NCBI GenBank assembly: GCA_000004985.1
Contig: GG739066.1
Direction: 5' to 3' (one strand)
From: Naegleria gruberi
Lineage: Eukaryota
DNA: 8,517 bases
Under the pieces are notes generated by a model, which saw nothing but the letters and a program-made list of their open reading frames with translations, was not told the origin of the DNA and ran no database searches. Position numbers and translations under genes: made by a program. Numbering within the stretch: position 1 is the stretch's first letter; the number at the start of each line of letters is the position of its first letter. Positions 1 through 8,517 of this stretch are shown piece after piece.

Positions 1-1043
1 GTGTGTCCTTGTTCAGCTAATGCTTGCGAAAGATTAATACTACCATAATATCTATCCAAAAAAAGACAATGTTTTTTTTCTAATTGGCTTGTGATGCCTG
101 ACACTAATTGAGGAACTGTCTCTTTGGAAATTGGAGCTCCTCTTACAAACTTTTTCCTCTTGCTTTGTGCAATGGCAGGGTCTTCTGGTTCTTCCATTGT
201 TCTTTTCATTAGTTGAGCATAAACAAGAAAACCATTCTTGTCAGCAATTGTATACAGCTTACACCCATTTTTCTCTGGTTTTTTTGGCATGAAAACATGG
301 TGAGGATTATTCCTCATCATCATACCAACCATTGATTCATCGAATGCAAGCACTGTTCCTGGTTGATAAACTTCTTTGGAATTTTTGTTAAAAAAAGACT
401 CCACCACATCAAAGTCAAACTTCAAACAAGCTGCCATTTCAGCAAACTTGTGATACTTCATTCTCGACTTGAAAAAAAGACCATCACCAGTTGCATCAAC
501 CGTTGGCATCCTCCAACAATCAACAATTTTAGTCCTTTTTTCCCCATTGCCCAATTTAAAGAGAAGACAAAGAAATGTTTTGAAATCTTTCTTCTTGAAA
601 GGTTTATTAAACCGTTTCAAGTAATTGTCTCTGCTTTTTTGATCATTCTTTGTTAAAGGTCTTCCTCTCTTTCCTTTCTCCGAACGAGCTTCAATTCTAT
701 GACGTCTTCTTTCATTCATTTGCTTCAACAAATACTTCTCTATTTCCGGAGTAAAGATTTTACTAAACATTGATAGTGGTGTAACTTCTTCCGTAGTGAA
801 GGTGAATTTTAAACTTCCCTCTTCTTCATTCGGAATAGGAGGAAGCTTGTCAGTTAATTCAAATGGTTTATCATTGATTTGTAATTGAAATAAATCTATC
901 CCTCTCATAACTTCGGCTTCTTCTGCAGAAATCTTGTCTGTGGACTCATCCGAACAGTCAGACTGAACATCCTCATCATCATTTAATTCAGGAACTTCGC
1001 TTACATCTTCATCATCATCATCAGACGTAAATTCAAAATCCAT
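1..1043 (-). CDS. piggyBac-family (DDE_Tnp_1_7) transposase, N-terminal ~347 codons; ORF is still open at position 1, so the C-terminal part lies outside the window
   Basis: Manual reverse-complement translation from the ATG (complement of 1041-1043) gives an uninterrupted reading frame to position 1: MDFEFTSDDDDEDVSEVPELNDDEDVQSDCSDEST...FTPEIEKYLLKQMNERRR...MKYHKFAEMAACLKFDFD...VLAFDESMVGMMMRNNPHHVFMPKKPEKNGCKLYTIADKNGFLVYAQL...HCLFLDRYYGSINLSQALAEQGH. From memory this is colinear with T. ni piggyBac transposase. The acidic N-terminus EDVQSD aligns with DDVQSD. AFDESMVG aligns with TIDEQLLG, containing catalytic D268 (codon at 339-341). HHVFMPKKPEKNGCKL aligns with CPFRMYIPNKPSKYGIKI. FLDRYYGS aligns with TCDNWFTS, containing catalytic D346 (codon at 55-57). 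It is missing from the supplied ORF track only because it has no stop inside the window. Confidence 0.85.
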   Translation of the reverse strand, partial: MDFEFTSDDDDEDVSEVPELNDDEDVQSDCSDESTDKISAEEAEVMRGIDLFQLQINDKPFELTDKLPPIPNEEEGSLKFTFTTEEVTPLSMFSKIFTPEIEKYLLKQMNERRRHRIEARSEKGKRGRPLTKNDQKSRDNYLKRFNKPFKKKDFKTFLCLLFKLGNGEKRTKIVDCWRMPTVDATGDGLFFKSRMKYHKFAEMAACLKFDFDVVESFFNKNSKEVYQPGTVLAFDESMVGMMMRNNPHHVFMPKKPEKNGCKLYTIADKNGFLVYAQLMKRTMEEPEDPAIAQSKRKKFVRGAPISKETVPQLVSGITSQLEKKHCLFLDRYYGSINLSQALAEQGH

Positions 1044-1045
1044 GA

Positions 1046-1105
1046 TGGTTTGAGTGTTATTGTTTACCTGGGTTGTTTGGGTTGTGTGTTGTGTATAATC
1101 TTGTG
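1046..1105. repeat. GT-rich low-complexity tract (CA-rich on the transposase strand) directly 5' of the transposase ATG
   Basis: Sequence gtttgagtgttattgtttacctgggttgtttgggttgtgtgttgtgtataatcttgtg contains repeated GGGTTGT / GTGTTGT motifs. Confidence 0.4.
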
Positions 1106-1208
1106 AAAGCATTTTTTTAAGGCCATCATTGTTTACCGTAATGTAAAGTTATTGTACAGTATTGAGGAGAAATAAATCTTAATGAATCTAGATTTTTCAA
1201 AAATTAAT

Positions 1209-1256
1209 GAGAGACGCAACTCGAGACGCAGCCTGACTAGGCTCCAGCGAGTTGTA
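1209..1256. repeat. GC-rich island with direct repeat GAGACGCA(N4)GAGACGCA (1211-1218 and 1223-1230), an XhoI-type CTCGAG palindrome, and a small hairpin gcct-gact-aggc
   Basis: Read directly from the sequence: gagacgcaactcgagacgcagcctgactaggctccagcgagttgtag. Its local GC content is far higher than the surrounding promoter, which is more than 75% AT. Confidence 0.5.
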
Positions 1257-1467
1257 GTGTTTTATTAAAGTCCTACAGAAATACTCCCTTTAATTCTTTC
1301 AAATCCACCCACATTATTAAATTATTAAACTTTCATAAATTCCTTGATAAATAAATATGAACATTTCTTTTCAAGTTGCACCTTTCAATTTAAAACATAT
1401 CAATTTTCAAATAATAGTTTTGTTACCACTTCACATGAAAAAATAAGAAAGCACACAGATCTTCAAA

Positions 1468-2025
1468 ATGGCAAGATCTCACAAACAGTGTCCAAGTGCT
1501 GTGGCAGGTTGTAAGTGCTGCTCCACTTTCGGAATTAAATATCACAGAGAAAAACATCTTTCACAACGATCTTCAAAGAGAAAAACAAAGGAATTTCTCA
1601 ATGATTCATCACGACACATTTCCGATGCCTTGCCATCGAGAGAATATGTTCATTCTGATGTGAGATTGGTTCGACATGTGGAGAAGTATGTGGATTTGAA
1701 AGATTATCTCTCCTACCTGGAATGTTATGATGAGGAGAGGAATGAAGGCCTTAGGAACATTGAAAAACAAGTAAAGAATGAAATGATGGAAGAGTGGAAA
1801 CTAATGAAACCATCCCATGTTGTAAAAAAGGCAATTAAAAAATTAGAACGAGAAGGAGAGTTTACAATTTTCGACAATCAGGAAATTGAACTTCCCAAAG
1901 AATGTAAAAAGAGAATAGTCACTTGGGAAAATCAAGCTAGACAAATCATACGTGAAGCCAAAAAATATGAGCAAACTGGCTCACTAAGTTCATTCAATTC
2001 CTACAGGATTGTGATGAAAAAATAA
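1468..2025 (+). CDS. Hypothetical 185-aa protein with an N-terminal Cys/His cluster (C8, C15-x2-C18-x7-H26-x3-H30), a basic stretch, and a coiled-coil-like Glu/Lys-rich C-terminal half
   Basis: Complete ATG-to-TAA ORF from the track. The start context is ttcaaaATGG. The AATAAA at 2021-2026 overlaps the stop codon. Codon usage is A/T-rich in the third position like the neighbouring genes. I do not recognise a homolog from memory. Confidence 0.5.
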   Translation: MARSHKQCPSAVAGCKCCSTFGIKYHREKHLSQRSSKRKTKEFLNDSSRHISDALPSREYVHSDVRLVRHVEKYVDLKDYLSYLECYDEERNEGLRNIEKQVKNEMMEEWKLMKPSHVVKKAIKKLEREGEFTIFDNQEIELPKECKKRIVTWENQARQIIREAKKYEQTGSLSSFNSYRIVMKK

Positions 2026-2236: not shown

Positions 2237-5200
2237 NNNNNNNNNNNNNNNNNNNNNNNNNNNNNNNNNNNNNNNNNNNNNNNNNNNNNNNNNNNNNNNN
2301 NNNNNNNNNNNNNNNNNNNNNNNNNNNNNNNNNNNNNNNNNNNNNNNNNNNNNNNNNNNNNNNNNNNNNNNNNNNNNNNNNNNNNNNNNNNNNNNNNNNN
2401 NNNNNNNNNNNNNNNNNNNNNNNNNNNNNNNNNNNNNNNNNNNNNNNNNNNNNNNNNNNNNNNNNNNNNNNNNNNNNNNNNNNNNNNNNNNNNNNNNNNN
2501 NNNNNNNNNNNNNNNNNNNNNNNNNNNNNNNNNNNNNNNNNNNNNNNNNNNNNNNNNNNNNNNNNNNNNNNNNNNNNNNNNNNNNNNNNNNNNNNNNNNN
2601 NNNNNNNNNNNNNNNNNNNNNNNNNNNNNNNNNNNNNNNNNNNNNNNNNNNNNNNNNNNNNNNNNNNNNNNNNNNNNNNNNNNNNNNNNNNNNNNNNNNN
2701 NNNNNNNNNNNNNNNNNNNNNNNNNNNNNNNNNNNNNNNNNNNNNNNNNNNNNNNNNNNNNNNNNNNNNNNNNNNNNNNNNNNNNNNNNNNNNNNNNNNN
2801 NNNNNNNNNNNNNNNNNNNNNNNNNNNNNNNNNNNNNNNNNNNNNNNNNNNNNNNNNNNNNNNNNNNNNNNNNNNNNNNNNNNNNNNNNNNNNNNNNNNN
2901 NNNNNNNNNNNNNNNNNNNNNNNNNNNNNNNNNNNNNNNNNNNNNNNNNNNNNNNNNNNNNNNNNNNNNNNNNNNNNNNNNNNNNNNNNNNNNNNNNNNN
3001 NNNNNNNNNNNNNNNNNNNNNNNNNNNNNNNNNNNNNNNNNNNNNNNNNNNNNNNNNNNNNNNNNNNNNNNNNNNNNNNNNNNNNNNNNNNNNNNNNNNN
3101 NNNNNNNNNNNNNNNNNNNNNNNNNNNNNNNNNNNNNNNNNNNNNNNNNNNNNNNNNNNNNNNNNNNNNNNNNNNNNNNNNNNNNNNNNNNNNNNNNNNN
3201 NNNNNNNNNNNNNNNNNNNNNNNNNNNNNNNNNNNNNNNNNNNNNNNNNNNNNNNNNNNNNNNNNNNNNNNNNNNNNNNNNNNNNNNNNNNNNNNNNNNN
3301 NNNNNNNNNNNNNNNNNNNNNNNNNNNNNNNNNNNNNNNNNNNNNNNNNNNNNNNNNNNNNNNNNNNNNNNNNNNNNNNNNNNNNNNNNNNNNNNNNNNN
3401 NNNNNNNNNNNNNNNNNNNNNNNNNNNNNNNNNNNNNNNNNNNNNNNNNNNNNNNNNNNNNNNNNNNNNNNNNNNNNNNNNNNNNNNNNNNNNNNNNNNN
3501 NNNNNNNNNNNNNNNNNNNNNNNNNNNNNNNNNNNNNNNNNNNNNNNNNNNNNNNNNNNNNNNNNNNNNNNNNNNNNNNNNNNNNNNNNNNNNNNNNNNN
3601 NNNNNNNNNNNNNNNNNNNNNNNNNNNNNNNNNNNNNNNNNNNNNNNNNNNNNNNNNNNNNNNNNNNNNNNNNNNNNNNNNNNNNNNNNNNNNNNNNNNN
3701 NNNNNNNNNNNNNNNNNNNNNNNNNNNNNNNNNNNNNNNNNNNNNNNNNNNNNNNNNNNNNNNNNNNNNNNNNNNNNNNNNNNNNNNNNNNNNNNNNNNN
3801 NNNNNNNNNNNNNNNNNNNNNNNNNNNNNNNNNNNNNNNNNNNNNNNNNNNNNNNNNNNNNNNNNNNNNNNNNNNNNNNNNNNNNNNNNNNNNNNNNNNN
3901 NNNNNNNNNNNNNNNNNNNNNNNNNNNNNNNNNNNNNNNNNNNNNNNNNNNNNNNNNNNNNNNNNNNNNNNNNNNNNNNNNNNNNNNNNNNNNNNNNNNN
4001 NNNNNNNNNNNNNNNNNNNNNNNNNNNNNNNNNNNNNNNNNNNNNNNNNNNNNNNNNNNNNNNNNNNNNNNNNNNNNNNNNNNNNNNNNNNNNNNNNNNN
4101 NNNNNNNNNNNNNNNNNNNNNNNNNNNNNNNNNNNNNNNNNNNNNNNNNNNNNNNNNNNNNNNNNNNNNNNNNNNNNNNNNNNNNNNNNNNNNNNNNNNN
4201 NNNNNNNNNNNNNNNNNNNNNNNNNNNNNNNNNNNNNNNNNNNNNNNNNNNNNNNNNNNNNNNNNNNNNNNNNNNNNNNNNNNNNNNNNNNNNNNNNNNN
4301 NNNNNNNNNNNNNNNNNNNNNNNNNNNNNNNNNNNNNNNNNNNNNNNNNNNNNNNNNNNNNNNNNNNNNNNNNNNNNNNNNNNNNNNNNNNNNNNNNNNN
4401 NNNNNNNNNNNNNNNNNNNNNNNNNNNNNNNNNNNNNNNNNNNNNNNNNNNNNNNNNNNNNNNNNNNNNNNNNNNNNNNNNNNNNNNNNNNNNNNNNNNN
4501 NNNNNNNNNNNNNNNNNNNNNNNNNNNNNNNNNNNNNNNNNNNNNNNNNNNNNNNNNNNNNNNNNNNNNNNNNNNNNNNNNNNNNNNNNNNNNNNNNNNN
4601 NNNNNNNNNNNNNNNNNNNNNNNNNNNNNNNNNNNNNNNNNNNNNNNNNNNNNNNNNNNNNNNNNNNNNNNNNNNNNNNNNNNNNNNNNNNNNNNNNNNN
4701 NNNNNNNNNNNNNNNNNNNNNNNNNNNNNNNNNNNNNNNNNNNNNNNNNNNNNNNNNNNNNNNNNNNNNNNNNNNNNNNNNNNNNNNNNNNNNNNNNNNN
4801 NNNNNNNNNNNNNNNNNNNNNNNNNNNNNNNNNNNNNNNNNNNNNNNNNNNNNNNNNNNNNNNNNNNNNNNNNNNNNNNNNNNNNNNNNNNNNNNNNNNN
4901 NNNNNNNNNNNNNNNNNNNNNNNNNNNNNNNNNNNNNNNNNNNNNNNNNNNNNNNNNNNNNNNNNNNNNNNNNNNNNNNNNNNNNNNNNNNNNNNNNNNN
5001 NNNNNNNNNNNNNNNNNNNNNNNNNNNNNNNNNNNNNNNNNNNNNNNNNNNNNNNNNNNNNNNNNNNNNNNNNNNNNNNNNNNNNNNNNNNNNNNNNNNN
5101 NNNNNNNNNNNNNNNNNNNNNNNNNNNNNNNNNNNNNNNNNNNNNNNNNNNNNNNNNNNNNNNNNNNNNNNNNNNNNNNNNNNNNNNNNNNNNNNNNNNN

Positions 5201-6328
5201 NNNNNNNNNNNNNNNNNNNNNNNNNNNNNNNNNNNNNNNNNNNNNNNNNNNNNNNNNNNNNNNNNNNNNNNNNNNNNNNNNNNNNNNNNNNNNNNNNNNN
5301 NNNNNNNNNNNNNNNNNNNNNNNNNNNNNNNNNNNNNNNNNNNNNNNNNNNNNNNNNNNNNNNNNNNNNNNNNNNNNNNNNNNNNNNNNNNNNNNNNNNN
5401 NNNNNNNNNNNNNNNNNNNNNNNNNNNNNNNNNNNNNNNNNNNNNNNNNNNNNNNNNNNNNNNNNNNNNNNNNNNNNNNNNNNNNNNNNNNNNNNNNNNN
5501 NNNNNNNNNNNNNNNNNNNNNNNNNNNNNNNNNNNNNNNNNNNNNNNNNNNNNNNNNNNNNNNNNNNNNNNNNNNNNNNNNNNNNNNNNNNNNNNNNNNN
5601 NNNNNNNNNNNNNNNNNNNNNNNNNNNNNNNNNNNNNNNNNNNNNNNNNNNNNNNNNNNNNNNNNNNNNNNNNNNNNNNNNNNNNNNNNNNNNNNNNNNN
5701 NNNNNNNNNNNNNNNNNNNNNNNNNNNNNNNNNNNNNNNNNNNNNNNNNNNNNNNNNNNNNNNNNNNNNNNNNNNNNNNNNNNNNNNNNNNNNNNNNNNN
5801 NNNNNNNNNNNNNNNNNNNNNNNNNNNNNNNNNNNNNNNNNNNNNNNNNNNNNNNNNNNNNNNNNNNNNNNNNNNNNNNNNNNNNNNNNNNNNNNNNNNN
5901 NNNNNNNNNNNNNNNNNNNNNNNNNNNNNNNNNNNNNNNNNNNNNNNNNNNNNNNNNNNNNNNNNNNNNNNNNNNNNNNNNNNNNNNNNNNNNNNNNNNN
6001 NNNNNNNNNNNNNNNNNNNNNNNNNNNNNNNNNNNNNNNNNNNNNNNNNNNNNNNNNNNNNNNNNNNNNNNNNNNNNNNNNNNNNNNNNNNNNNNNNNNN
6101 NNNNNNNNNNNNNNNNNNNNNNNNNNNNNNNNNNNNNNNNNNNNNNNNNNNNNNNNNNNNNNNNNNNNNNNNNNNNNNNNNNNNNNNNNNNNNNNNNNNN
6201 NNNNNNNNNNNNNNNNNNNNNNNNNNNNNNNNNNNNNNNNNNNNNNNNNNNNNNNNNNNNNNNNNNNNNNNNNNNNNNNNNNNNNNNNNNNNNNNNNNNN
6301 NNNNNNNNNNNNNNNNNNNNNNNNNNNN
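2237..6328. other. Assembly gap: 4,092 consecutive N
   Basis: Uninterrupted n run. The long X-filled ORFs in the track are artefacts of translating N. Confidence 0.97.
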
Positions 6329-6778
6329 ATTGCACGAACCCAACGTCACCAAGTGGGAGGAGCTATCCATCCATTAATGTTTGTAAATAGAGACTTTGAT
6401 GACAGAGATTATGAAATGCTTCTAGCTTTGGATGATAATGTTGAAAAGGCATCAAAAAAGACAGCAGCCTCTGTTGTTGGAAAATTACCAATTGTACATA
6501 TTGAAGAGAAGGAATGCACTTGTAGTATTTGTTTGGAAGATTTAGAAGTTGGATCGTTTGCTAGTGAAATACCTTTTTGTAATCACAAATTTCATACAGA
6601 ATGTATAGAGAAATGGTTGAAAGATTATGGACATACTTGCCCTGTTTGTAAACAAGAAGTTACAGAGATTGATTTTAATCATGCAAAGATCATCAAGGAA
6701 GAAGTCAATAATAAGAGAAAAGGTTTCTCAAATAAGAATGTTACAGAATCCAGATTCAAAAAGAAGAAGGTTGAATAA
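6329..6778 (+). CDS. RING-H2 E3 ubiquitin ligase, C-terminal fragment (RNF38/RNF44/Arkadia-like tail); the 5' part of the gene is inside the gap
   Basis: The frame is open from the first base after the gap to the TAA at 6776-6778. Translation: ...DYEMLLALDDNVEKASKKTAASVVGKLPIVHIEE-KECTCSICLEDLEVGSFASEIPF-CNH-KFH-TEC-IEKWLKDYGHT-CPVC. This is a perfect RING-H2 spacing: C-x2-C-x15-C-x1-H-x2-H-x2-C-x11-C-x2-C. The DYE-LLAL-D plus LP motif preceding the RING is typical of this E3 subfamily. Confidence 0.8.
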   Translation: MARTQRHQVGGAIHPLMFVNRDFDDRDYEMLLALDDNVEKASKKTAASVVGKLPIVHIEEKECTCSICLEDLEVGSFASEIPFCNHKFHTECIEKWLKDYGHTCPVCKQEVTEIDFNHAKIIKEEVNNKRKGFSNKNVTESRFKKKKVE

Positions 6779-6820: not shown

Positions 6821-7210
6821 TTATTGTTCCTTCTTGGCAGCTTCTAGAATTGATTCCAAAGTCTTCCTTTCAGGTATAATATCCTCAAGAAAATCAAAAT
6901 AATCTTGACTTTTAACAGCCTCCGATAAATCGTTATAATTTACGGTTTTTCTATTGTCTCTAATTGTATTCTTCAATGATTCTCTAGCTAAATGTTCAAT
7001 TAATTTTTCTGCAGCTTTGGAAACCAAAACAACAGCTTCTTGTGAGATTGTTCGAACATCAGCATCACTTTTCATTATTCTCCTCACTCTTGCAACAGGC
7101 ATATCTACAATTTGTCTGATTGGTTGCTGTTGTTCCGATCCTGCAAAGGTCATTTGATAATTTGCATCCGAAGATGGTTGTAGGGAAGACGAAGATGGTG
7201 TATGATTCAT
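6821..7210 (-). CDS. Histone-fold protein, H2A-like CHRAC1 (CHRAC-15) / POLE4 / DPB3 family, 129 aa with a Ser/Gln-rich N-terminal extension
   Basis: The track ORF 6821..7270 begins at a GTG (complement of 7268-7270), and the first ATG is at 7208-7210 (MNHTPSSSS...). The core DMPVARVRRIMKSDADVRTISQEAVVLVSKAAEKLIEHLARESLKNTIRDNRKTVNYNDLSEAVKSQDYFDFLEDIIPE aligns, from memory, with human CHRAC1 LPLSRIRVIMKSSPEVSSINQEALVLTAKATELFVQCLATYSY...KKVLTYSDLANTAQQSETFQFLADILP, and with POLE4 and DRAP1. The 60 nt between the first ATG and the track's GTG start are AT-rich and look like leader rather than coding sequence. Confidence 0.8.
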   Translation of the reverse strand: MNHTPSSSSLQPSSDANYQMTFAGSEQQQPIRQIVDMPVARVRRIMKSDADVRTISQEAVVLVSKAAEKLIEHLARESLKNTIRDNRKTVNYNDLSEAVKSQDYFDFLEDIIPERKTLESILEAAKKEQ

Positions 7211-7358
7211 TTTTATTAATAATTTATAATTTATTAATAAATATTTAATTGAAATTGATGATCTCAACACATTTTAGCCTTGAATATTATTTTCTTTAAG
7301 ATTAAAATATTAACACTCATCATACATGTTATCACTCATCAAGAAAGAAATTAAAAAA
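7211..7358. promoter_or_regulatory. Bidirectional promoter region between the head-to-head histone-fold gene (-) and the PRORSD1-like gene (+)
   Basis: Only 115 bp separates the histone-fold ATG (7208-7210) from the first in-frame ATG of the + gene (7326), and 148 bp separates it from the homology-supported ATG (7359). The region is extremely AT-rich, with TATAAAT-like motifs on the minus strand about 20-30 bp upstream of the histone-fold ATG. A polypyrimidine-AG, tattattttctttaag, lies at 7286-7300. Confidence 0.4.
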
Positions 7359-8033
7359 ATGGCTACAGAATTAACTATTGAACAAAAAGAATCCATTCTG
7401 TTAAATTTTCTTCGTTCCGAACTTGGAATGAAAGCAGATACTAGTTATCATGCTCAATCAGACACTGTTGATGATTGGTTAAAAGCTGTAGAGGGTAGAT
7501 ATGTCGATTCGGATCAAGTCAAATTTAAATTATGTAAAAACTTCTTTTTAAATCACAAGAAGAAGAAACAAAACAAATTCTATGGAGTTGCTTGTACTGA
7601 TACTCAAGTTGAAATGAATGCACTCTCTAAAAATCTTGGATTAGGATCAGGAAATTTGAGATTTGCTGATAGTGCAGAATTAACTAATTATTTAGATATC
7701 TTACCTGGCAATGTCACTCCACTCGCTTTCCATTTATTACATCCAAAGGTTCAAGAAAAGAGGCCTGATGTTCTTGTTTCAACTGAGGAAAATCCATCAA
7801 TTGTTTCCAATATGAAAACATTGACCATTATTGTGGATGCCAAAATTTTGAGAAAGAGTAAGGAGTTCACAACTATGCTCTTGTTCCATCCTCTGCACAA
7901 TTGTGCATCGACATCAATGTCACAAGATGAATTTATCAAGTACATGAAGGAATGCTTAGGAGAGGATGCTTGGATGCAAGTTATTGTATATGATTTCGAA
8001 ACAAATGCAAAGCTTTCAGTAAATGACGTATAA
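7359..8033 (+). CDS. PRORSD1: PRORSD1-like protein (prolyl-tRNA synthetase-associated domain; YbaK/ProX-type aminoacyl-tRNA trans-editing deacylase)
   Basis: Translation MATELTIEQKESILLNFLRSEL...CKNFFLNHKKKKQNKFYGVACTDTQVEMNALSKNLGLGSGNLRFADSAELTNYLDILPGNVTPLAFHL...IIVDAKILRKSKEFTTMLLFHPLHNCASTSMSQDEFIKYMKECLGEDAWMQVIVYDFE aligns along its whole length with human PRORSD1 (recalled from memory) SKNLFLKDKKKKNYWLVTVLHDRQINLNELAKQLGVGSGNLRFADETAMLEKLKVGQGCATPLALF...VKFVLDSAFLEGGHEKVYFHPMTNAATMGLSPEDFLTFVKMTGHDPIILNFD. The conserved Lys in KN-FL and the GxGSGNLRFAD block are both present. The start is chosen at 7359 (aaaaaaATGG) because MATEL... aligns with human MAGAEL.... An in-frame upstream ATG at 7326 would add MLSLIKKEIKK. 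Confidence 0.85.
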   Translation: MATELTIEQKESILLNFLRSELGMKADTSYHAQSDTVDDWLKAVEGRYVDSDQVKFKLCKNFFLNHKKKKQNKFYGVACTDTQVEMNALSKNLGLGSGNLRFADSAELTNYLDILPGNVTPLAFHLLHPKVQEKRPDVLVSTEENPSIVSNMKTLTIIVDAKILRKSKEFTTMLLFHPLHNCASTSMSQDEFIKYMKECLGEDAWMQVIVYDFETNAKLSVNDV

Positions 8034-8166: not shown

Positions 8167-8517
8167 ATGGTCTCTCGCATCATGAGCCCCAGCATGTTAC
8201 TGTTTGGGCTGTTGGTCAACTTGATTGTTGCCTTTTGTTGTGGTGTAATTGTAAATCTTGTGGATGCACAACAGTTATCATCATCCAGCTTGAAGAGGAC
8301 TGCACACATCACTACACCAAATTTCTCTAATAATTCAACAATATTAATATCATCTCCGTTAGTGAAAAGTATTCTCTTGGAACGATTCTCACTGGATGAA
8401 TTTTTAAAATTGTTGTCTAATGTGACTTCACCTTCAATTATTACAAGAATGGAGGTGAATGATTCTGCAAGTGGAGAACAGTCAATCGTCTATCAGACAA
8501 CTGAGGAAAATTTCAAT
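8167..8517 (+). CDS. Partial ORF (117 codons, open to the window end) encoding a protein with an N-terminal signal peptide or signal-anchor and multiple N-glycosylation sequons
   Basis: The start context aaaaaaATGG is identical to that of the PRORSD1-like gene, and the upstream in-frame stop is at 8131-8133. Translation: MVSRIMSPSMLLFGLLVNLIVAFCCGVIVNLVDA|QQLSSSSLKRTAHITTPNFSNNSTILISSPLVKSILLERFSLDEFLKLLSNVTSPSIITRMEVNDSASGEQSIVYQTTEENFN. This shows a roughly 23-aa hydrophobic core, then the sequons NFS, NNS, NST, NVT and NDS. It is absent from the ORF track because it has no stop in the window. No homolog is recognised. Confidence 0.4.
   Translation, partial: MVSRIMSPSMLLFGLLVNLIVAFCCGVIVNLVDAQQLSSSSLKRTAHITTPNFSNNSTILISSPLVKSILLERFSLDEFLKLLSNVTSPSIITRMEVNDSASGEQSIVYQTTEENFN

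What the first reader, a model, noticed from the sequence alone, without database searches (positions are those of the whole stretch)
1..1467. Intact-looking piggyBac-like transposase beside host genes, with no recognisable TTAA-CCYT terminus
The 347 visible codons have no stop or frameshift and are colinear with canonical piggyBac. They preserve the acidic N-terminal EDVQSD block and both of the first two catalytic aspartates (AFDESM at 339-341 and FLDRYYGS at 55-57). That pattern suggests a young, possibly active element rather than an old decayed copy. I read the 424 bp upstream of its ATG for the expected 5' end, which on the + strand would appear as ...RGGG-TTAA. The TTAA sites present (1117, ~1316, ~1324, ~1389) are not preceded by GGG. 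Three explanations remain. The element's 5' end could lie further away, with the 185-aa ORF inside the element as cargo. The gene could be a domesticated PGBD-type host gene using a host promoter. Or this lineage could use non-canonical piggyBac-like termini.
Basis: partly seen in the sequence, partly recalled or inferred. Interest (0 to 1): 0.6.

Follow-up and report, generated by a model that had tools for sequence, protein, structure and literature searches.

The report
Truncated piggyBac-like transposon with unusual ends
The left end of this small Naegleria gruberi scaffold holds the first part of a jumping gene of the piggyBac type, from a divergent protist branch whose ends are long inverted repeats starting CTG and lack the family's usual TTAA flanks.

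Summary
The window is a whole 8517-bp Naegleria gruberi scaffold. Its minus strand carries an open piggyBac-type transposase ORF (PF13843, E=2e-20) that runs off the left end. Catalytic Asp 1 (339-341) and Asp 2 (54-56) are present. Asp 3 and the Cys-rich tail lie off-scaffold.

The element's 5' end can be placed at window 1278:
- A decayed second copy in a metagenome contig (L001) shares the leader at 89% identity, beginning sharply there, with unrelated flanks.
- The closest relative (L011, a complete 2233-bp element) has 125-bp terminal inverted repeats whose first ~50 nt are homologous to window 1278 downward.

So this is a transposon copy that keeps its terminal repeat. It is not a domesticated gene, and the 185-aa ORF is an orphan neighbour outside the element, not cargo.

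No canonical TTAA-CCY end exists. At eight junctions from five related elements, TTAA occurs 0 times, and AT|CT(G/A) occurs 7 times. The window has TT|CTG.

Unresolved: copy number in N. gruberi, whether this copy is complete or active, and the true target-site duplication. Interest is moderate: an ordinary truncated transposon, but from a lineage with apparently non-canonical ends.

The parts
1..1112 (-). Partial transposase ORF of a piggyBac-like element. Cut by the scaffold end after ...LAEQGH.
   Evidence: no stop; 0 of 20000 shuffles stop-free. (PF13843, E=2e-20). (NCBI model P0001 starts MLSQDYTQ...). (family profile vs piggyBac 6x67, E=2.4e-21).
339..341 (-). First catalytic Asp (AFDESM), equivalent to T. 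ni piggyBac D268.
   Evidence: alignments. Invariant D235 in family alignment A2.
54..56 (-). Second catalytic Asp (FLDRYYGS), equivalent to D346.
   Evidence: D conserved in all relatives covering this column. (profile 'vgDryfGs' aligned to 'ITCDNWFTS').
1113..1278 (-). 5' leader of the element (166 nt from terminus to ATG 1112). The relative L011 has 171 nt from terminus to ATG.
1154..1278 (-). Inferred 5' terminal inverted repeat. The terminus is the C at 1278, read on the minus strand as CTGTAGGACTTTAATAAAACACTACAACTCGCTGG... The extent of about 125 nt is inferred from L011. The 3' partner is not visible.
   Evidence: 89% identity to L001 488-602 over window 1282-1163. L011 has 125-bp inverted repeats, 95% identical; the first ~50 nt are homologous among window, L001, L012 and the L011 3' end.
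1279..1282 (.). Flanking tetranucleotide, AAAT on + (ATTT in element orientation). Not TTAA. The nearest TTAA (1290-1293) is 11 nt from the terminus.
1468..2025 (+). 185-aa orphan gene, outside the element and not cargo. Listed only to mark the boundary.
   Evidence: NCBI 'predicted protein [Naegleria gruberi]', no other homolog. (no Pfam family). (no similarity to the element or its relatives).

Best explanation
**What it is.** Window 1-1278 (minus strand) is the 5' part of one copy of a cut-and-paste DNA transposon. It belongs to a divergent, mostly protist branch of the piggyBac superfamily in Naegleria gruberi.

**Layout.** The element begins at 1278 with a long terminal inverted repeat, 5'-CTGTAGGACTTTAATAAA..., about 120 nt long by homology. 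A leader of about 166 nt follows, with the promoter presumably inside the repeat and leader. Then comes a DDD (RNase H-like) transposase gene. The scaffold ends inside that gene after the second catalytic Asp.

**Shown.**
- The ORF is open and belongs to PF13843.
- Asp 1 and Asp 2 are present.
- The 5' boundary is at 1278.
- That end is homologous to a demonstrated inverted repeat in a relative.
- There is no TTAA or CCY at the end.

**Inferred.**
- The missing part carries Asp 3 and the Cys-rich DNA-binding tail, as full-length relatives do.
- The transposase binds the long repeats and excises and reinserts the element.
- This lineage targets an AT dinucleotide rather than TTAA.

Whether this copy is complete or active cannot be told.
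For: **Transposase.** PF13843 E=2e-20. The family profile matches T. ni piggyBac 6x67 at E=2.4e-21 and piggyBat at 1.2e-18. The match is colinear through D268, D346, D447 and the Cys-rich domain.

**Open frame.** 370 codons stop-free, against 0 of 20000 shuffles.

**Second copy.**
- L001, a 927-bp ENA metagenome contig, was found through the 76-aa protein P0077.
- It matches window 1282-1163 at 89%.
- It matches window 1014-834 at 73%, with many deletions and an in-frame stop.
- Similarity begins abruptly at CTGTAGG, and the upstream flanks are unrelated.

**Closest relative.**
- P0002 has 35% aa identity, E=2e-52.
- It lies on L011, a 2233-bp contig bounded by 125-bp inverted repeats that are 95% identical.
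- Their start, CTGTACGAATTTAATAAAGTACTAC...CGCTGG, aligns with window 1278 downward.

**Other relatives.**
- A Willaertia magna element has a 28-nt inverted repeat.
- A marine element has a 19-28-nt inverted repeat.
- Both start CT(A/G)G and flank an intact ORF.
- Metagenome contigs L006, L007 and L011 break exactly at these ends, as multicopy repeats do.

**Literature.** PiggyBac-class repeats are reported in N. lovaniensis (29 RepeatMasker hits; PMC6125883).
Against: - The 3' end of this copy is not on the scaffold. The inverted repeat, the third Asp and the Cys-rich domain are all inferred, not seen.
- Copy number in N. gruberi is unknown. The protein searches found no second N. gruberi protein of this lineage.
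- The second copy comes from an unidentified metagenome organism.
- The dinucleotide next to the terminus is TT here, against AT in 7 of 7 relatives' junctions. This may mean a mutated end.
Confidence: 0.82

Rival explanations
1. Domesticated piggyBac-derived host gene (PGBD, PiggyMac or Tpb2 type). It would be immobile and expressed from a host promoter, with transposon ends no longer functional.
For: - The ORF is intact over 370 codons and embedded among compact host genes.
- Only one N. gruberi protein of this lineage was found.
- One intact relative (P0004 on L003) lacks inverted repeats.
Against: - The sequence homologous to a demonstrated terminal repeat is retained at the expected distance from the ATG.
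- A decayed copy with the same end sits in an unrelated context.
- No ortholog from other Naegleria species surfaced in either protein database.
- The scaffold breaks inside the gene, as often happens in repeats.
Confidence: 0.07
2. A larger element whose 5' end lies beyond the 185-aa ORF, or in the N gap, with that ORF carried as cargo.
For: - There is no canonical end in 1044-1467.
- An 18-mer resembling the terminus (3 mismatches, same orientation) lies at 1989-2006. About 0.01 such matches are expected by chance.
Against: - Similarity to L001 stops at 1278-1282, with unrelated DNA beyond.
- L011 and L012 place the terminus at the homologous CTG.
- Region 1279-2236 shares nothing with the element, L011 or other relatives by blastn or tblastx.
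- The 185-aa ORF has no homolog anywhere.
Confidence: 0.04
3. A canonical TTAA-targeting piggyBac-like element whose terminal nucleotides and target duplication have simply mutated in this old copy.
For: - The review of 157 elements attributes rare non-TTAA flanks (ATAT, TTAT, ATAA and others) to mutation in single copies (PMC5381638).
- A more distant relative (L009) has TTAA at its 3' flank.
Against: - TTAA is absent at 8 of 8 junctions from five distinct elements of the closer clade. Two of these elements have well-conserved repeats (27 of 28 nt, 19 of 19 nt) and intact ORFs.
- AT precedes the terminus at 7 of 8 junctions, against a background AT frequency of 0.10.
- TTAA-anchored scans found no better repeats.
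Confidence: 0.07

Closest known systems
piggyBac (IFP2) of Trichoplusia ni and canonical piggyBac-like elements (PBLE)
   Same: - PF13843 transposase, colinear with the solved structure 6x67.
- Asp 1 and Asp 2 in place.
- Relatives carry Asp 3 and a C-terminal CxxC...CxxC domain.
- Single-ORF element of about 2.2 kb bounded by inverted repeats that begin with C.
   Different: - Single-sequence similarity is marginal (E=0.033).
- The repeat is about 120 nt rather than 14 +/- 2 nt, and begins CTG, where G at position 3 falls outside the published C[C/A/T][C/A/T] motif (PMC5381638).
- The flanks are not TTAA.
L011/L012 element (oil-sands tailings metagenome JGI 3300002220; protein P0002)
   Same: Closest relative found: 35% aa identity, homologous terminal ~50 nt, similar distance from terminus to ATG.
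   Different: A different family. Its ORF is split in two. Its host organism is unknown.
Willaertia magna KAL9646704.1 element (L002)
   Same: Same clade, from a heterolobosean sister genus. Intact 646-aa transposase with DDD and the Cys-rich tail. Inverted repeats start AT|CTAG and lack TTAA.
   Different: The repeat is only 28 nt. 33% aa identity.
Domesticated piggyBac transposases (human PGBD1-5; ciliate PiggyMac and Tpb2)
   Same: The transposase fold is shared. PiggyMac also acts at non-TTAA (TA) boundaries; that point rests on my own knowledge, and PMC5381638 describes these genes only in general terms.
   Different: Those genes have lost their terminal repeats and are conserved single-copy host genes. 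Here the repeat is retained and a decayed paralogous copy exists.

Membership tests
piggyBac superfamily transposon (PBLE) | Transposase with the DDE_Tnp_1_7 (PF13843) catalytic core | tested here: met
   E=2.1e-20, 73.8 bits against a cut-off of 22.4. Family profile vs piggyBac structure 6x67, E=2.4e-21.
piggyBac superfamily transposon (PBLE) | Catalytic DDD triad (D268, D346, D447 of T. ni piggyBac) | tested here: inconclusive
   D1 (339-341) and D2 (54-56) are present. D3 lies beyond the scaffold end. It is conserved in the relatives that reach that column, except P0010, where MAFFT misplaces the final residues.
piggyBac superfamily transposon (PBLE) | C-terminal Cys-rich DNA-binding domain | not testable with these tools
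   Off-scaffold. Present in relatives P0004, P0005, P0007, P0008, P0009, P0012, P0018 and P0020.
piggyBac superfamily transposon (PBLE) | TTAA target-site duplication flanking the ends | tested here: not met
   The flank at the only visible end is ATTT in element orientation. TTAA occurs at 0 of 8 junctions in five related elements. A strict test of the duplication needs the 3' end.
piggyBac superfamily transposon (PBLE) | Short (12-19 bp) terminal inverted repeats starting C[C/A/T][C/A/T] (PMC5381638) | tested here: not met
   The terminus starts CTG. The repeat is 125 bp in the closest relative, and about 120 nt are conserved between the window and L001. The window's own 3' repeat is not visible.
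Domesticated piggyBac-derived gene (PGBD type) | Loss of terminal repeats | tested here: not met
   The sequence homologous to the repeat is retained at 1154-1278.
Domesticated piggyBac-derived gene (PGBD type) | Single copy with orthologs at the syntenic locus in related species | not testable with these tools
   No Naegleria genome could be searched. No ortholog appeared in the protein searches. A decayed copy exists at a non-syntenic locus.

The most novel reading that the evidence does not exclude
A protist clade of piggyBac-superfamily transposons does not use TTAA. The clade is centred on Heterolobosea such as Naegleria and Willaertia, with marine and tailings-pond relatives. Its ends are 5'-CT(G/A)..., often within long (up to 125-bp) inverted repeats. 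They abut an AT dinucleotide, which implies either a 2-bp AT duplication or insertion at AT without duplication. That would mean a different target recognition or cut geometry within a superfamily defined by TTAA specificity.
Probability: 0.35. Interest if true: 0.6.

Novelty: new variant of a known kind. Interest (0 to 1): 0.42.

Why it matters
TTAA targeting and seamless excision are the hallmarks of piggyBac. They are also why it is used as a genome-engineering tool. A natural branch with intact DDD transposases, long terminal repeats and AT rather than TTAA at its ends would show how target choice is set in this fold. It would also link canonical elements to the ciliate domesticated enzymes that cut at non-TTAA sites.

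For this window alone the consequences are modest:
- It is a truncated transposon copy at a scaffold end.
- It explains why the scaffold breaks there.
- It marks the 'predicted protein, partial' as a transposase.

Tried and rejected
**Extending the scaffold.**
- The window is the whole scaffold.
- Exact look-ups of the 185-aa ORF, the 235-aa ORF and P0001 were not on record.

**Finding more copies.**
- A 20-mer of the terminus found 0 hits in JGI metagenomes.
- A family-profile scan of metagenome contigs gave only L010, a decayed fragment at 40% identity.
- Viral and GTDB contig scans gave nothing.
- An alignment-based protein search returned only 2 hits and missed its own members, so it could not be used to list Naegleria paralogs.
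- Source names of the top 20 relatives: one Willaertia, one Pompholyxophrys transcript, and the rest metagenomes. No second N. gruberi protein.

**Looking for canonical ends.**
- TTAA-anchored inverted-repeat scans in L002, L003 and L004 gave only low-complexity matches.
- There is no 3' repeat in L001 or L015.

**Target-site duplication.**
- A TA model fits only 3 of 8 junctions (worked out by hand from the junction sequences).
- A 4-bp ATAT model fits the marine element but not Willaertia.

**Other.**
- A literature search for PRJEB11402 found nothing.
- The 'EDVQSD' similarity was rejected as evidence.

Full report
**What the window is.**
- The protein search identifies the minus-strand ORF as NCBI 'predicted protein, partial [Naegleria gruberi]' on a contig of exactly 8517 bp. 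The window is therefore a complete small scaffold.
- Positions 2237-6328 are an N gap.
- The real sequence is about 35% G+C and carries compact, intron-free genes.

**Checking the observation.**
- Minus strand 1-1043 gives 347 codons without a stop.
- The frame is open for 23 more codons, up to an ATG at 1112-1110, which the NCBI model uses.
- A 370-codon open frame never occurred in 20000 shuffles. The stop-codon probability is 0.078 per codon, so P is about 1e-13.
- Pfam PF13843 (DDE_Tnp_1_7) matches at E=2e-20 over profile positions 1-228 of 349.
- As a single sequence it barely detects T. ni piggyBac (E=0.033). A profile of the window protein plus 12 relatives matches piggyBac (6x67) at E=2.4e-21 and piggyBat (9c0f) at 1.2e-18.
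- That profile match is colinear through D268 (iDEs), D346 (vgDryfGs), D447 (fVDqAn) and the Cys-rich tail.
- In the window, Asp 1 is at 339-341 and Asp 2 at 54-56. Both columns are conserved in the family alignment.
- The 'EDVQSD' block is real, but its match is insignificant (1.2 bits) and it is absent from relatives.
- There are eight TTAA sites in 1044-1467, not four. None follows GG.

**How rare the lineage is.** An exhaustive HMMER scan of 1.84 billion representative proteins found only 153 relatives at E<1e-3 and 8 at E<1e-30. Those whose source was looked up come mostly from metagenomes, plus Willaertia magna (KAL9646704.1) and one Pompholyxophrys transcript. The full-length members of the 12 aligned relatives (533-839 aa) keep all three Asp residues and a CxxC...CxxC tail.

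**A second copy fixes the 5' boundary.**
- One hit, the 76-aa protein P0077, turned out to be translated partly from the leader of a related element.
- Its 927-bp ENA metagenome contig, L001, matches window 1282-1163 at 89%.
- It matches window 1014-834 at 73%, with many deletions and an in-frame stop.
- Similarity starts abruptly at ...TCTGTAGGACTTTAAT. Upstream DNA is unrelated: an EGF-like gene in L001, and the 185-aa ORF side in the window.

**The closest relative shows what that boundary is.**
- P0002 (35% identity, E=2e-52) lies on L011, a 2233-bp contig bounded by 125-bp inverted repeats that are 95% identical.
- The repeat begins CTGTACGAATTTAATAAAGTACTAC...CGCTGG. This aligns with window 1278 downward, CTGTAGGACTTTAATAAAACACTAC...CGCTGG.
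- The distance from terminus to ATG is 171 nt in L011 and 166 nt in the window.
- I conclude that the element's 5' terminus is window 1278 and that about 1154-1278 is its 5' terminal repeat. The window's 3' partner is off-scaffold, so the repeat is inferred here, not shown.

- The 185-aa ORF (1468-2025) lies outside the element.
- It is an annotated N. gruberi orphan with no homolog and no Pfam family.
- Region 1279-2236 shares nothing with the element or its relatives. Cargo is therefore unlikely.
- Domestication is unlikely because the terminal repeat is retained and a decayed copy exists elsewhere.
- The third alternative, non-canonical termini, is supported.

**Termini across the clade.**

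| Junction | Sequence |
|---|---|
| Willaertia element (L002) | intact ORF between 28-nt inverted repeats: ...gtagtcAT\|CTAGAAATTACT...AGTAATTTCTAG\|ATgagttg |
| Marine element (P0009; L004-L007) | 19 nt exact, about 28 nt in all: ...tatatAT\|CTGGTTGATTTTACG...CCAG\|ATatcttc |
| L012 | gagAT\|CTGTACG |
| L001 | taatAT\|CTGTAGG |
| P0003 element (L013) | cccAT\|CTGGTTTTTACC |
| Window | gtatTT\|CTGTAGG |

- Contigs L006 and L007 of the marine element end exactly at its termini.
- TTAA is present at 0 of 8 junctions. AT is present at 7 of 8, against a background AT frequency of about 0.10.
- In the two cases with both flanks, a 2-bp AT fits both. A 4-bp ATAT fits only the marine element.
- I could not decide between a 2-bp duplication, insertion at AT without duplication, and AT being part of the repeat. 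No empty sites were available.
- The published survey of 157 elements gives TTAA as the superfamily's target, repeats of 14 +/- 2 bp, and a start motif C[C/A/T][C/A/T]. It attributes rare other flanks to mutation (PMC5381638).
- A more distant relative (L009) may still be canonical, with TTAA at its 3' flank.

**Most likely mechanism.** This is a cut-and-paste DDD transposase encoded by an element with long terminal repeats. The transposase would bind the repeats, excise the element and reinsert it.
- Shown: family membership of the protein, two catalytic residues, the 5' boundary, its homology to a real inverted repeat, and the absence of TTAA.
- Inferred: the missing C-terminal half, the 3' repeat, mobility in N. 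gruberi, and AT targeting.
- N. lovaniensis is reported to have 29 PiggyBac-class RepeatMasker hits (PMC6125883), so such elements in the genus are not new in themselves.

**Limits.**
- No Naegleria genome could be searched, so copy number, the rest of this copy and synteny remain open.
- L001's host is unknown.
- Junction positions rest on the extent of inverted repeats or similarity, and on contig breaks.

**Verdict.** The feature is an ordinary truncated transposon copy, but from a divergent piggyBac lineage with non-canonical ends.

Noticed in passing
window 1989-2006 (minus strand): An 18-mer, CTGTAGGAATTGAATGAA, matches the element's terminus with 3 mismatches. It has the same orientation and lies inside the 3' end of the 185-aa ORF. 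About 0.01 such matches are expected by chance. No further similarity surrounds it. It could be chance or a relic of an older end.
   Followed up: partly
window 2237-6328: A 4092-nt run of N makes up 48% of the scaffold. The very long 'ORFs' listed across it are artefacts.
   Followed up: yes
window 6329-6778 (+), 6821-7210 (-), 7326-8033 (+): Three tightly packed host genes. They are the C-terminal part of a RING-finger protein (zf-RING_2, E=2e-10), a histone-fold CBF/NF-Y-type protein (E=9e-19), and a YbaK/aminoacyl-tRNA-editing-domain protein (E=5e-10). Intergenic spacers are about 40-115 bp.
   Followed up: partly
window 8167-8517 (+): An open frame starting MVSRIMSPSMLLFGLLVNLIVAF... has a hydrophobic, signal-peptide-like start and runs off the right end of the scaffold. 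No Pfam match.
   Followed up: partly
L003 1814-1846 and 3887-3919: The intact relative P0004 is flanked by a 33-bp direct repeat (97% identical), not an inverted one. The 5' copy is preceded by CTGG and resembles the marine element's terminus. Unexplained.
   Followed up: partly
L002 5620-5648 and 5662-5690: A perfect 29-nt inverted repeat with a 13-nt spacer lies about 210 bp upstream of the Willaertia element's 5' end. It could be a hairpin or miniature element. Not examined.
   Followed up: no
L004 339-2858 and 3922-6858: Two distantly related PF13843 genes lie in tandem on one marine metagenome contig, with about 20-23% identity in their best local matches.
   Followed up: partly
L014, last ~23 nt: The Logan contig ends in an Illumina adapter-like sequence (its last bases are AGATCGGAAGAGCACACGTCTGA; one search printed this end as the reverse complement, beginning TCAGACGTGTGCTCTTCCGATCT). 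Its ends are therefore read ends, not biological boundaries.
   Followed up: no
L009 ~278-300 and ~2127-2150: The more distant relative P0018 has a ~22-nt inverted repeat, AGAATTnnnnAACCAATAAAAA. TTAA is at its 3' flank and ACTA at its 5' flank. It may be a canonical TTAA element with one mutated flank.
   Followed up: partly
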